Source of the DNA: the human T2T-CHM13v2.0 reference genome, Homo sapiens
Length of the DNA: 64,000 bases
Strand: one strand, 5' to 3'
Assembly (NCBI RefSeq): GCF_009914755.1
Contig: NC_060929.1
A model generated the notes under the pieces. The model was given only the letters and a program-made list of their open reading frames with translations, ran no database searches and was not told the origin of the DNA. Below are positions 36,610-37,970 of the stretch, one piece after another. Positions within the stretch are counted from its first letter, which is position 1, and each line of letters starts with the position of its first letter. Position numbers and translations under genes: made by a program.

Positions 36610-37255
36610 CTGAAGGCCGTCTCATCCCATGTCCACCATGTAGGGGAGGGACTTTGTTCAGGAAGAAATCCGTGTCTCCAACCACACTATCTACCCATCA
36701 CAGACCCCTTTCCTATCACTCAAGGCCCCAGCCTGGCACAAATGGATGCATACAGTTCTGTGTACTGCCAGGCATGTGGGTGTGGGTGCATGTGGGTGTT
36801 TACACACATGCCTACAGGTATGCGTGATTGTGTGTGTGTGCATGGGTGTACAGCCACGTGTCTACCTATGTGTCTTTCTGGGAATGTGTACCATCTGTGT
36901 GCCTGCAGCTGTGTAGTGCTGGACAGTGACAACCCTTTCTCTCCAGTTCTCCACTCCAATGATAATAGTTCACTTACACCTAAACCCAAAGGAAAAACCA
37001 GCTCTAGGTCCAATTGTTCTGCTCTAACTGATACCTCAACCTTGGGGCCAGCATCTCCCACTGCCTCCAAATATTAGTAACTATGACTGACGTCCCCAGA
37101 AGTTTCTGGGTCTACCACACTCCCCAACCCCCCACTCCTACTTCCTGAAGGGCCCTCCCAAGGCTACATCCCCACCCCACAGTTCTCCCTGAGAGAGATC
37201 AACCTCCCTGAGATCAACCAAGGCAGATGTGACAGCAAGGGCCACGGACCCCATG

Positions 37256-37336
37256 GCAGGGGTGGCGTCTTCATGAGGGAGGGGCCCAAAGCCCTTGTGG
37301 GCGGACCTCCCCTGAGCCTGTCTGAGGGGCCAGCCC
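37256..37336 (+). promoter_or_regulatory. GPX3: SECIS element (type II) in the GPX3 3'UTR
   Basis: AUGAG 37273-37277 with UGAG 37313-37316 forming the GA quartet; about 10-bp helix II; unpaired AAA 37288-37290; apical mini-stem GCCC-UUGU-GGGC. Confidence 0.95.
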
Positions 37337-37446
37337 TTAGTGCATTCAGGCTAAGGCCCCTGGGCAGGGATGCCACCCCTGCTCCTTCGGAGGACGTGCC
37401 CTCACCCCTCACTGGTCCACTGGCTTGAGACTCACCCCGTCTGCCC

Positions 37447-37497
37447 AGTAAAAGCCTTTCTGCAGCAGCTGAGCCTACTGTGTGTGGTGCTTCTTCA
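37447..37497 (+). terminator. GPX3: GPX3 polyadenylation signal (variant AGTAAA) with a GU-rich downstream element
   Basis: AGTAAA 37447-37452; TGTGTGTGGTGCTTCTT about 27 nt downstream; I saw no AATAAA in the 3'UTR. Confidence 0.75.
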
Positions 37498-37598
37498 ATG
37501 GTGGCCGCCCCCGCCTGGGTGGGAAGTGAGGAGGAGAAGGTGGGGCAGGGTAAAGGGGGGAGGATGAGAAAAGAACAAATATGACAACAAAAACTTTT

Positions 37599-37800
37599 TA
37601 CAGTGGGTGCAAAGGTAATTGCGGTTTTTGCCATATGGCAAAATCCAAGGCTACCTCCCCACCCCACAATTCTCCCTGAGATCAGCCAAGGCAGACTGCA
37701 AGGGCCATGTAGCCCTATTAGGGGTGGCATCTTCATGAGGGAGGCCCCCCTGCCACAAAAAAGGGGCAAAAATTGCAATTACTTTTTCAACAACCTGATA
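37599..37800. mobile_element. MADE1 (Hsmar1-derived MITE) split by an inserted copy of the GPX3 3'UTR
   Basis: Left arm GGTGCAAAGGTAATTGCGGTTTTTGCCAT, right arm GGCAAAAATTGCAATTACTTTTTCAACAACCTGA-TA, versus MADE1 TIR TTAGGTTGGTGCAAAAGTAATTGCGGTTTTTGCCAT. Confidence 0.85.
37645..37750 (+). repeat. Direct, diverged copy of 37158-37287 (pre-SECIS sequence and SECIS 5' arm)
   Basis: First 36 nt have 2 mismatches; the 25-nt block AGGGGTGGCRTCTTCATGAGGGAGG has 1 mismatch. Confidence 0.92.
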
Positions 37801-37970
37801 GTTAGCTGCAGTGGCGCACTCCTTCAGCTACTTGGGAGACTGATGTGGGAGGCTCCCTTGAGCCCGGGAGTTTGAGGCTATAGTGTGCCGTGACTGAGTC
37901 TGTGAAGAGCCACTGCACTCCAGCCTGGGCAACACAGTCAGACTGTCTCTTAAAAAAAAAAAAAAAAAAG
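37801..37970 (+). mobile_element. Old Alu right monomer
   Basis: CAGCTACTTGGGAGACTGA...CACTGCACTCCAGCCTGGGCAAC, poly-A tail. Confidence 0.85.

What the first reader, a model, noticed from the sequence alone, without database searches (positions are those of the whole stretch)
37599..37800. Mariner MITE (MADE1) carrying a captured copy of the neighbouring SECIS 5' half
Seen: the two MADE1 arms (37599-37643 and 37751-37798, followed by TA) enclose about 105 bp copied from 37158-37287, roughly 490 bp upstream and in the same orientation. The copy includes the SECIS core CTTCATGAGGGAGG and stops just before the AAA loop. The MITE centre TGCCA..GGCAAAA appears on both sides of the insert, and the left one is collapsed to the perfect palindrome TTTTGCCATATGGCAAAA. 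Established: MADE1 is an 80-bp palindromic Hsmar1 derivative in anthropoid primates. Inference: a break at the hairpin was repaired by templated insertion from nearby DNA or nascent RNA, making a Pack-type MITE with a half-SECIS. It has no 3' GA partner, so it cannot be a SECIS alone. In read-through RNA it might compete for the real SECIS 3' arm only indirectly, while the TIRs could clamp it in a stem-loop. I know of no description of this structure.
Basis: partly seen in the sequence, partly recalled or inferred. Interest (0 to 1): 0.8.

Follow-up and report, generated by a model that had tools for sequence, protein, structure and literature searches.

The report
Broken MADE1 patched with GPX3 3'UTR copy
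A small palindromic transposon relic just downstream of the GPX3 gene broke at its centre and was patched with a 100-base copy of the neighbouring GPX3 3' untranslated region; this looks like an old, harmless repair scar of a type that recurs at other copies of the same relic in the human genome.

Summary
MADE1 arms lie at 37599-37634 and 37763-37798, followed by TA. They enclose a 100-nt copy (37645-37744) of GPX3 3'UTR 37158-37282, at 90.9% identity with 4 gaps. Genome-wide, only these two copies exist, and the composite occurs once. The copy carries the SECIS 5' core but is not a SECIS: Rfam gives no hit. It lies 132 nt past the annotated GPX3 3' end.

The "Pack-type MITE" and RNA-competition ideas are not, because there is no second copy and no annotated transcript.

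The structure is not a one-off. I found 52 places where MADE1 arms are split by 60-400 nt and examined 26 of them with flanks. Nine of those 26, including this one, carry a copy of DNA from 0.36-1.6 kb away: 5 direct and 4 inverted. They usually show 2-7 nt junction microhomology and a 16-29 nt duplication of the MADE1 centre on both sides. Three more are weaker cases. One insert comes from another chromosome, and one is the U2 snRNA 5' end.

Best reading: microhomology-primed templated synthesis after a break or stall at the palindrome centre. This is a new member of a known kind (filler DNA, templated insertion), and the recurrence is of modest interest.

The parts
37158..37282 (+). Source segment in the GPX3 3'UTR (exon 5). 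It ends inside the 5' arm of the SECIS.
   Evidence: Alignment to 37645-37744. It is the only other genomic match of the insert.
37265..37328 (+). The real GPX3 SECIS element: AUGA at 37273-37276, AAA at 37288-37290, and a 3' UGAG.
   Evidence: Rfam SECIS_1, 27.5 bits, E 0.012. This is below the gathering score of 35, but the whole model is matched.
37447..37467 (+). AGTAAA poly(A) signal (37447-37452) and the annotated GPX3 3' end (37467). The composite starts 132 nt further on.
   Evidence: for the hexamer; the supplied annotation table for the 3' end.
37599..37634 (+). MADE1 left arm (start uncertain by 1 nt). The outer 20 nt differ at 5 of 20 positions from the consensus of 42 arms.
   Evidence: mir-548 model alignment.
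37635..37643 (+). First 9 nt of the MADE1 right arm (ATGGCAAAA), joined to the left arm with no loop. Together they form the perfect 18-nt palindrome 37626-37643. Base 37644 (T) cannot be assigned to either side.
   Evidence: loop reduced from 8 to 0.
37645..37744 (+). Templated insert: a 100-nt copy of 37158-37282, with the SECIS 5' core (ATGA at 37735-37738) at its 3' end.
37745..37750 (+). A run of six C of unassigned origin at the right junction.
   Evidence: Near-matches to the junction 8-mer occur at 4 other places within 1.3 kb on the two strands, so no source can be named.
37751..37762 (+). Second copy of the MADE1 centre: the end of the left arm (TGCCA) plus an A-rich loop.
   Evidence: Intact centres listed have the same layout.
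37763..37798 (+). MADE1 right arm. Its CCG has decayed to TTG, and the outer 20 nt differ at 3 of 20 positions from the consensus.
37799..37800 (.). TA dinucleotide after the right end. The matching left flank (37597-37598) reads TT.
37801..37951 (+). Alu-monomer-like repeat with an A tail, directly abutting the element. It is not part of the composite.
   Evidence: Rfam Metazoa_SRP, 29.6 bits, E 2.5e-5, with 141 central model positions missing.

Best explanation
An ordinary MADE1 (an 80-bp palindromic Hsmar1 MITE) sat about 130 nt downstream of the GPX3 poly(A) site.

**Steps (all inferred).**
1. MADE1 suffered a break, or a stalled or disengaged nascent strand, at its dyad centre.
2. Both sides kept, or regained, a copy of the central mini-palindrome.
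3. A 3' end finishing in ...GGCAAAA primed by 2-3 nt of microhomology (CC or TCC) at 37156-37159, some 490 nt upstream.
4. It copied about 125 nt of the GPX3 3'UTR and stopped inside the SECIS stem.
5. It was then joined back to the other half of MADE1 at TGCCA.

**What it is.** The result is filler DNA, a templated insertion. It is not a mobile cargo element and has no SECIS function; it has since decayed neutrally.

**What is shown.** The anatomy, the uniqueness of the pair, the direction of copying and the recurrence of the architecture are shown.

**What started it.** My split for the initiating lesion is:

| Initiating lesion | Probability |
|---|---|
| Structure-induced break or replication stall at the palindrome | about 0.5 |
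| Hsmar1-transposase excision followed by abortive gap repair | about 0.2 |
| L1-endonuclease nicking | about 0.1 |
| Other | remainder |

The confidence given (0.8) is for the general claim: an in-situ, non-functional templated patch at the MADE1 centre.
For: **This locus**
- The insert and the source are the only two copies in the genome, and the composite occurs once.
- They lie on the same strand with 362 nt between them, at 90.9% identity.
- The source side is the ancestral one. It is continuous with the SECIS and with a paralogous region on contig 6.
- There is no poly(A) tail at either end of the insert.

**Recurrence**
- One search found 52 split-MADE1 places (99 matches; 0 for the reversed-pattern control). 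I examined 26 of them with +-1.5 kb flanks.
- Nine of the 26 carry an insert copied from 0.36-1.6 kb away: this window, L014/L033, L017, L024, L026, L035, L037, L041 and L043. Five are direct and four inverted.
- Three more are short or weak (L032, L044, L045).
- Five of the nine inserts were checked genome-wide. Four (this one, L014, L017, L024) have no close copy other than the nearby source; L024 also has one weak partial match on another contig. The fifth, L035, also hits many diverged repeat-family copies, and the nearby copy at 91% is much the best.
- Junction microhomology of 3-7 nt is visible. Examples are TGGCAAA in L043, TTAATG in L024, GGCAC in L037, and GTATGAG and TTTGC in L035.
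- Most cases show a 16-29 nt duplication of the MADE1 centre on both sides of the insert, as here.
- The four inverted cases cannot come from tandem duplication plus deletion.

**Precedents**
- Pol-theta templated inserts copied from close by, at mariner-family (Tc1) breaks (PMC4490562, passages read).
- Filler DNA made by SDSA at rice transposon excision sites (PMC4423477, passages read).
Against: - No primate orthologues could be examined. It is therefore not shown that an unsplit MADE1 once stood here, and the event is not dated.
- For this locus alone, a 487-bp tandem duplication followed by a roughly 360-bp deletion gives the same product.
- The right junction is not clean. Six C (37745-37750) have no assignable source, so microhomology there is not demonstrated.
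- The left microhomology is only 2-3 nt.
- Half of the 52 places were classed only by eye from 80 printed bases.
- The genome-wide counts are stated by the tool to be lower bounds.
- The arm-insertion control is small: 0 local copies among 6 true arm insertions. It does not prove that the effect is specific to the centre.
- A DNA template cannot be told apart from an RNA template.
Confidence: 0.8

Rival explanations
1. Transposition-coupled origin. The MADE1 was excised by Hsmar1 transposase and the gap was refilled from the sister copy. Both nascent strands ran past the palindrome centre, and one switched template into the nearby 3'UTR before the ends were joined. This is abortive gap repair with filler DNA, as described for Ds- and P-type elements (recalled).
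For: - It explains a centre copy on both sides, and the microhomology.
- The local cases are all old: K2P is 0.035-0.104 in 12 pairs, mean 0.076.
- Gap repair interrupted after excision is the textbook origin of internally altered elements (PMC3014272, introduction passage).
Against: - Insert-to-source divergence per copy (about 0.04) is well below the outer-arm divergence from consensus: 45 of 400 positions, or 11%, in ten of these elements. This suggests the events came after the transposition burst, although arm divergence overestimates age.
- The interchromosomal case L042 is 98.2% identical to its source, which is far too young for Hsmar1 activity.
- Nothing at this locus requires an excision.
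Confidence: 0.15
2. Two ordinary steps. First, a 487-bp tandem duplication running from 37158 to the MADE1 centre. Then a deletion of about 360 bp in the second unit, from the SECIS 5' arm to the end of the duplicated left arm.
For: - The copy starts exactly where a tandem unit of 487 nt would start (start-to-start spacing 487, D1).
- A second MADE1 centre on the right falls out automatically.
Against: - It needs two independent events whose end points both fall at the MADE1 centre.
- Four of the nine strong cases of the same architecture are inverted copies (L024, L026, L037, L041). This route cannot produce those.
Confidence: 0.1
3. RNA-templated patch. The template was GPX3 (pre-)mRNA, copied by a reverse-transcribing polymerase (L1 ORF2p or Pol theta) at a nick or break in the MADE1 loop.
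For: - The source lies wholly inside the GPX3 last exon and is in the sense orientation.
- The MADE1 loop is a frequent L1-type target: 21 of the 52 split places hold an Alu.
- One MADE1 centre holds the first 35 nt or so of U2 snRNA, starting at model position 1 (L060 230-264, Rfam U2, 40.7 bits).
Against: - There is no poly(A) tract and no splice junction to prove an RNA origin.
- By my reading, the boundaries of the flanking duplications in the local-copy cases do not fall at T-run/A nick sites, unlike the Alu cases.
- Inverted and intergenic-looking sources at other loci do not call for RNA.
Confidence: 0.12
4. Functional element: a Pack-type MITE or decoy half-SECIS that affects GPX3 selenocysteine decoding or 3'-end formation in read-through RNA.
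For: - The 14-nt SECIS core is identical in the copy.
- The arms can pair around it.
Against: - No SECIS model hit on the copy.
- It lies beyond the annotated poly(A) site, with no annotated transcript.
- It is single-copy.
- CpGs have decayed in the copy, there are 4 indels, and the arms are the most diverged of the set (8 of 40 positions). This is a neutral look.
- Eight other loci captured unrelated DNA in the same way.
Confidence: 0.03

Closest known systems
Templated inserts of polymerase-theta-mediated end joining at DNA breaks, including breaks left by mariner-family Tc1 excision (PMC4490562; passages read)
   Same: The insert is a copy of sequence close to the break, the junctions use very short homology, and the source is left intact.
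   Different: - Here the break is at the centre of the transposon relic, not at an excision site.
- By my recollection, the insert (100 nt; 56-264 nt in the sister cases) is long for that pathway.
- A 16-29 nt duplication of the palindrome centre flanks the insert.
Filler DNA from synthesis-dependent strand annealing or abortive gap repair at plant transposon sites (PMC4423477, passages read; Ds-element work recalled, not read)
   Same: Foreign segments are copied into a transposon-associated break, and elements end up with unrelated internal sequence.
   Different: In rice the fillers sit at empty excision sites and average 13 bp (range 1-123). Here both transposon arms remain and the filler sits between them.
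Pack-MULE or Pack-MITE type transduplication (recalled)
   Same: A host gene fragment lies between the terminal inverted repeats of a non-autonomous DNA transposon.
   Different: Those elements are defined by having moved or amplified with their cargo. This composite is single-copy and its cargo comes from 0.5 kb away at the same locus.
Replication-based template switching (FoSTeS, MMBIR, short-range template switches; PMC7954356 and PMC8421209 seen as search listings and abstracts only)
   Same: A nascent strand leaves at a secondary-structure-prone site, copies a nearby template in either orientation, and returns using microhomology.
   Different: No study listed or 39 ties these events to MADE1. 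The return point here duplicates the palindrome centre.
Palindrome-centre breakage through hairpin or cruciform cleavage, as proposed for AT-rich palindromes in recurrent translocations (recalled, not read)
   Same: Break points lie roughly symmetrically about the dyad of a near-perfect palindrome.
   Different: The outcome here is a small local patch, not a translocation. No cruciform or nuclease has been shown.

Membership tests
MADE1 (Hsmar1-derived MITE) | Two terminal arms of about 37 bp matching the family's inverted repeats (definition: PMC1784062, passages read). | tested here: met
   - Left arm: 4 substitutions and 3 extra bases against a 34-nt arm of a genomic MADE1 copy. Right arm: 6 substitutions and 1 extra base.
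- Outer 20 nt differ at 5 of 20 and 3 of 20 positions from the consensus of 42 arms.
- Twelve genomic MADE1 arms match at 88-95%.
MADE1 (Hsmar1-derived MITE) | Arms in inverted orientation flanking only about 6 bp (an 80-bp near-palindrome). | tested here: not met
   The arms are inverted (I1), but 128 nt lie between them (37635-37762). This is a disrupted member, not a canonical one.
MADE1 (Hsmar1-derived MITE) | TA target-site duplication on both sides. | tested here: inconclusive
   TA on the right (37799-37800) and TT on the left (37597-37598). The outermost left bases are badly decayed.
MADE1 (Hsmar1-derived MITE) | Presence only in anthropoid primates at the orthologous site. | not testable with these tools
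   No primate genomes are on hand.
Pack-type (cargo-carrying) MITE | A host gene fragment between the terminal inverted repeats. | tested here: met
   100 nt of GPX3 3'UTR lie between the arms.
Pack-type (cargo-carrying) MITE | The composite has transposed, giving further copies with the same junctions elsewhere. | tested here: not met
   A whole-genome search with 37599-37800 found 1 full-length match (itself), the 3'UTR source, and 12 arm-only matches.
Templated insertion / filler DNA | The insert is a copy of an intact sequence elsewhere, typically nearby. | tested here: met
   The source at 37158-37282 is intact, 362 nt away, and is the only other copy in the genome.
Templated insertion / filler DNA | Microhomology at the junctions. 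| tested here: inconclusive
   - Left junction: a 2-3 nt overlap (CC or TCC).
- Right junction: blurred by six unassigned C.
- Sister loci show a clear 3-7 nt.
Templated insertion / filler DNA | Dependence on a particular polymerase or pathway (Pol theta, SDSA, MMBIR). | not testable with these tools
   This needs genetics or cell assays.
SECIS element (for the copy at 37720-37750) | AUGA core, a helix with an apical A-rich loop, and a 3' GA partner forming the kink-turn. | tested here: not met
   Only the 5' AUGA and half of the helix are present. Rfam SECIS_1 hits 37265-37328 but nothing in 37599-37800 at E<=1.
L1-mediated retro-insertion (target-primed reverse transcription) | A poly(A) tail next to a target-site duplication that begins at a T-run/A nick site. 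| tested here: not met
   There is no A or T tract at either end of the insert. A flanking duplication exists, but its edges (before TGCCA, after GGCAAAA) are not of that type. Alu inserts in other MADE1 centres do show both features.
mir-548 microRNA gene | Match to the family model at its gathering score. | tested here: not met
   26.1 bits against a gathering score of 90.

The most novel reading that the evidence does not exclude
The centre of the MADE1 palindrome is a germline hot spot where breaks were patched by copying whatever template lay at hand: DNA 0.4-1.6 kb away in either orientation, DNA from another chromosome, or an snRNA. Each event left a signature of a duplicated palindrome centre plus microhomology. 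The thousands of MADE1 copies would then form a natural, datable record of palindrome breakage and templated repair in primate evolution. The GPX3 half-SECIS is one entry in that record. I found no description of this.
Probability: 0.45. Interest if true: 0.55.

Novelty: new member of a known kind. Interest (0 to 1): 0.35.

Why it matters
For GPX3 itself it probably does not matter. The copy is outside the annotated mRNA, is not a SECIS, and looks neutral.

The value is methodological and mechanistic. The locus is a clean, fully resolved example of a templated repair patch. Following it up showed the same architecture at 8 or more other MADE1 copies. If a full survey confirms this, MADE1 and perhaps other palindromic MITEs would give a set of old and young events. 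From these one could read the rules of templated repair in the primate germline: template distance, orientation, microhomology, and possible stops at hairpins such as the SECIS.

It also warns annotators that a SECIS-core match downstream of a selenoprotein gene can be a repair copy.

Tried and rejected
- **Chance or a shared repeat family.** Rejected. The insert has only one other genomic match. The 3'UTR's only further match is a paralogous SECIS region on contig 6, which does not cover 37158-37263.
- **Mobilised composite.** Rejected for this genome.
- **Retro-insertion.** Rejected: there is no A tail.
- **A third template switch to explain the six C at 37745-37750.** I considered skipping of the SECIS apex to 37307-37315, the minus strand of 37254-37266, or 37374-37382. 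Near-matches to the junction 8-mer occur at several places in this C-rich 1.3 kb, so none can be preferred. I left it unexplained.
- **L1-endonuclease origin of the local-copy class.** Considered because Alu inserts share the hot spot. The duplication edges do not look like T-run/A nick sites (my reading), so I kept it at low odds.
- **Arm-insertion control.** Only 6 true arm insertions were found, all Alu or L1-like. This is too few to test centre specificity.
- **Wider flanks (20 stretches of about 10 kb).** Sources further than 1.5 kb away could therefore be found only by whole-genome search, which was done for L035 and L042 only.
- **Dfam, RepeatMasker and primate genomes.** Not available. 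Alu, L1 and MIR labels are my reading of the sequences, apart from the SRP/Alu and U2 Rfam hits.

Full report

Yes. The stretch 37599-37800 reads as follows:
- a MADE1 left arm (37599-37634);
- the first 9 nt of the right arm, joined to it with no loop (37635-37643), giving the perfect 18-nt palindrome 37626-37643;
- one unassignable T (37644);
- a 100-nt insert (37645-37744);
- six C (37745-37750);
- a second copy of the MADE1 centre, namely TGCCA plus an A-rich loop (37751-37762);
- the right arm (37763-37798), followed by TA.

The arms match a genomic MADE1 copy with 4 substitutions and 3 extra bases (left) and 6 substitutions and 1 extra base (right) over 34 nt. They are 80% complementary over 30 nt. 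The MADE1-derived mir-548 model aligns to the left part with its 8-nt loop reduced to zero (26.1 bits, far below the gathering score). MADE1 is defined as two 37-bp inverted repeats around 6 bp (PMC1784062, passages read). This is therefore a disrupted MADE1.

The insert aligns to 37158-37282 on the same strand. There are 99 columns, 9 mismatches (6 transitions, 3 transversions) and 4 gap events of 19, 5, 1 and 2 nt. Identity is 90.9% and K2P is 0.098.

**2. Is it more than chance, and which copy is the original?**

A search of the whole assembly with the insert finds only itself and the 3'UTR segment (2 of 2 matches; E 2.9e-11). A search with the whole composite finds itself, the same segment, and 12 places that match only an arm. 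A search with the 3'UTR finds itself, the insert, and a 76% match on contig 6 that covers only the SECIS part, window 37264-37372. I take the contig 6 match to be a paralogous selenoprotein gene; that identification is recalled, not tested.

The source is continuous with the real SECIS, which Rfam places at 37265-37328 (27.5 bits, E 0.012, full model length). Two CpGs in the source are TpG/CpA in the copy. Copying therefore ran from the UTR into MADE1.

**3. Is the copy a SECIS, or transcribed?**

The 14-nt core CTTCATGAGGGAGG is identical in both copies (37269-37282 and 37731-37744). However, the copy stops inside the upper helix, lacks the apical loop and the 3' partner, and gives no SECIS hit at E<=1.

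It starts 132 nt beyond the annotated GPX3 3' end (37467; AGTAAA at 37447). It lies in the 954-nt spacer before the convergent TNIP1 3' end, and the supplied table lists no transcript over it.

Folded alone, the arms pair, but the energy is only modestly better than shuffles. As DNA it is -33.5 kcal/mol, z -1.51, with 16 of 200 shuffles folding as well. As RNA it is -70.1 kcal/mol, z -2.16, with 6 of 200. I see no support for a role in selenocysteine decoding.

**4. The structure is recurrent.**

Two arm-only hits (L003, L004) showed a left arm followed by the start of the right arm and then other sequence. This prompted a genome-wide search for MADE1 arm cores separated by 60-400 nt.

- Exact cores gave 12 matches, with 0 for the reversed-pattern control.
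- Cores that allow CpG decay gave 99 matches: 51 forward and 48 reverse, with 0 and 0 for the control. I collapsed these to 52 places.
- The same cores 0-30 nt apart, that is, intact centres, gave 281 matches. I estimate this as roughly 155 places, since 55 places make up the first 100 rows.
- The tool states that its counts are lower bounds.

I examined 26 of the 52 places with +-1.5 kb of flank by self-BLAST. The results were:

| Class | Places | Loci |
|---|---|---|
| Strong local copy | 9 | this window (L040), L014/L033, L017, L024, L026, L037, L041, L043, and L035 |
| Short or weak local match (35-63 aligned nt) | 3 | L032, L044, L045 |
| Copy from another chromosome | 1 | L042: 341 nt, 98.2% identical to contig 10, matching the insert only |
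| Alu | 4 | |
| L1-like | 2 | |
| Rearranged or adjacent MADE1 pieces only | 7 | |

The L035 source lies 1.6 kb away and was found by whole-genome search.

The other 26 places I classed only by eye from the 80 nt printed:
- 17 Alu;
- 2 L1-like or T-tailed;
- 5 MADE1-only;
- 1 duplicate of L041 in what looks like a segmental duplication;
- 1 that holds the first 35 nt or so of U2 snRNA. I then fetched this one and confirmed it (L060 230-264, Rfam U2, 40.7 bits, model position 1 onward).

Features of the nine strong local cases:
- Five are direct and four are inverted.
- The gap between copy and source is 362-1,622 nt.
- The aligned length is 56-264 nt.
- K2P is 0.035-0.098. Over all 12 local pairs it is 0.035-0.104, mean 0.076.
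- Genome-wide uniqueness was checked for five of the nine. It was not checked for L026, L037, L041 or L043.
- Junctions commonly share 3-7 nt between the MADE1 centre and the source. Examples are TGGCAAA in L043, TTAATG in L024, GGCAC in L037, GTATGAG and TTTGC in L035, and TGC in L014 and L042.
- In most cases the left piece runs through the loop to ...GGCA or ...GGCAAAA. The right piece starts again at or before TGCCA or inside the loop. A 16-29 nt stretch of the centre therefore stands on both sides of the insert.
- In L014 the two loop copies are reverse complements of each other.

As a small control, I searched for insertions inside an arm (14 matches). By my reading this gave 6 true arm insertions, all Alu or L1-like, and none was a local copy. 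The numbers are too small to carry weight.

**5. Mechanism.**

*Shown:* a unique nearby sequence was copied into the dyad centre of a palindromic element. The centre is present on both sides. Homology at the left junction is short. There is no A tail. The same pattern occurs at other loci in both orientations.

*Inferred:*
- A break, or a disengaged nascent strand, arose at the palindrome centre.
- Each side kept or regained the self-complementary central segment. Such tails can fold back on themselves instead of re-annealing with each other.
- A 3' end finishing in ...GGCAAAA primed on nearby DNA through a few paired bases and copied about 125 nt.
- The extended end was captured by the other side at TGCCA.

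This is the logic of polymerase-theta end joining, SDSA filler, or replication-based template switching. [quoted passage not shown]

That the copy ends inside the SECIS stem could mean the template hairpin stopped synthesis. This rests on a single case and is speculation.

What started the event is open. My odds are:
- Structure-induced breakage or stalling at the palindrome: about 0.5. The break points are roughly symmetric about the dyad. The events span K2P 0.018-0.104, which argues against a single transposition-era burst.
- Transposase excision with abortive gap repair: about 0.2.
- L1-endonuclease nicking: about 0.1. Alu inserts share the spot, but the duplication edges of the local-copy cases are not T-run/A sites.

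A DNA template and an RNA template cannot be separated for this locus. The U2 case shows that RNA can be used at such sites.

**6. Age.**

K2P of 0.098 rests on 9 substitutions, so the error is large. With recalled neutral rates of about 1-2.2e-9 per site per year, it suggests some tens of millions of years.

The outer arms of ten of the local-copy elements differ from their consensus at 45 of 400 positions; this element differs at 8 of 40. That is more per copy than half the insert-to-source distance. It hints that the patches post-date MADE1 insertion. However, arm divergence also contains differences among source elements, so I do not press the point.

**7. Rivals for this locus.**

- A 487-bp tandem duplication followed by a roughly 360-bp deletion gives the same product and cannot be excluded here. 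It needs two events that both end at the MADE1 centre, and it cannot explain the four inverted sister cases.
- A mobilised cargo MITE is contradicted by the single copy.
- A functional half-SECIS has nothing in its favour beyond the conserved 14-mer.

**8. Comparison with what is known, and novelty.**

As a kind, this is filler DNA, also called a templated insertion. That kind is known, so the GPX3 composite is a new member of it.

It fails the defining test of a Pack-type element, which is movement with cargo, and the tests for SECIS, retro-insertion and mir-548 membership.

My literature searches gave the following:
- No paper holds both MADE1 and GPX3 (0 papers).
- Among papers with MADE1 or Hsmar1 plus "filler" (16 papers), none is about such inserts, judging by title and abstract.
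- None of the 12 papers listed (of 268 holding at least 2 of the terms), nor of the 12 listed (of 35), ties MADE1 to templated insertion, cruciforms or template switching.

Subscription-only papers are not covered. The classic Hsmar1/MADE1 descriptions and the primate DNA-transposon dating work are among these; I recall them but did not read them.

The recurrence at MADE1 centres may therefore be undescribed. My survey is partial: half of the places were judged by eye, no repeat masker was available, and the counts are lower bounds.

**9. Verdict.**

The repair interpretation is supported. The Pack-MITE and functional ideas are not supported.

Interest is low for GPX3 biology. It is moderate for DNA-repair and transposon specialists because of the recurrent, signature-bearing class.

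Noticed in passing
window 37801-37951: An Alu-monomer-like repeat with an A tail starts directly after the TA that ends the MADE1. Rfam Metazoa_SRP gives 29.6 bits with the central 141 model positions missing, and a mir-3135 hit lies inside it.
   Followed up: no
window 37185-37203 vs 37204-37218: The source 3'UTR holds an imperfect tandem repeat (CTCCCTGAGAGAGATCAAC then CTCCCTGAGATCAAC). The copy has only one unit. Either the source duplicated later or the copying slipped.
   Followed up: partly
window 37256-37269 and 37369-37382: A 14-nt inverted repeat, 93% complementary, brackets the SECIS (I5). It could extend the lower stem of the SECIS. The copy's version of the 5' arm (37720-37731) is 100% complementary to 37369-37380 (I6).
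   Followed up: no
G000 contig 6, 28374986-28375095 (L012): The only other genomic match of the GPX3 3'UTR: 76% identity over window 37264-37372, that is, the SECIS region only. It is presumably the SECIS of a paralogous glutathione peroxidase gene; that identity is recalled, not tested.
   Followed up: no
52 places listed (e.g. L013, L022, L025, L029-L031): The MADE1 loop is a frequent landing site for Alu: 21 of the 52 split places. The inserts have A tails and 12-14 nt target duplications starting in the A/T-rich loop. L1-like fragments occur as well (L015/L034, L027).
   Followed up: partly
L060 230-264 (G000 contig 7, about 139.6 Mb): The first 35 nt or so of U2 snRNA, from model position 1, sit in the centre of a MADE1 (Rfam U2, 40.7 bits, E 8e-7). 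This looks like an RNA-derived patch with no A tail.
   Followed up: partly
L042 1529-1869 (contig 8) and L061 (contig 10): A 341-nt insert in a MADE1 centre is 98.2% identical to a single place on another chromosome. It has CA and TGC junction overlaps and a 20-nt direct duplication of the centre. This is a young, long-distance templated insertion.
   Followed up: yes
L018, L021, L026, L028, L038: Several MADE1 copies carry complex internal rearrangements made only of MADE1 centre pieces, with inverted and tandem repeats of the loop and arm ends. This is as expected from fold-back copying at the palindrome.
   Followed up: no
G000 contig 5, 176480643-176480818 and 178451058-178451229: The same split MADE1 with the same insert occurs twice, 2 Mb apart, on opposite strands. 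This is probably a segmental duplication rather than transposition; the second copy was not fetched.
   Followed up: no
L003 1396-1545 (contig 23) and L004 1492-1545 (contig 11): L003 is a MADE1 with a 44-nt internal tandem duplication that includes the centre. L004 is a left arm plus the first bases of the right arm running into unrelated sequence, with no right arm within 1.5 kb.
   Followed up: partly
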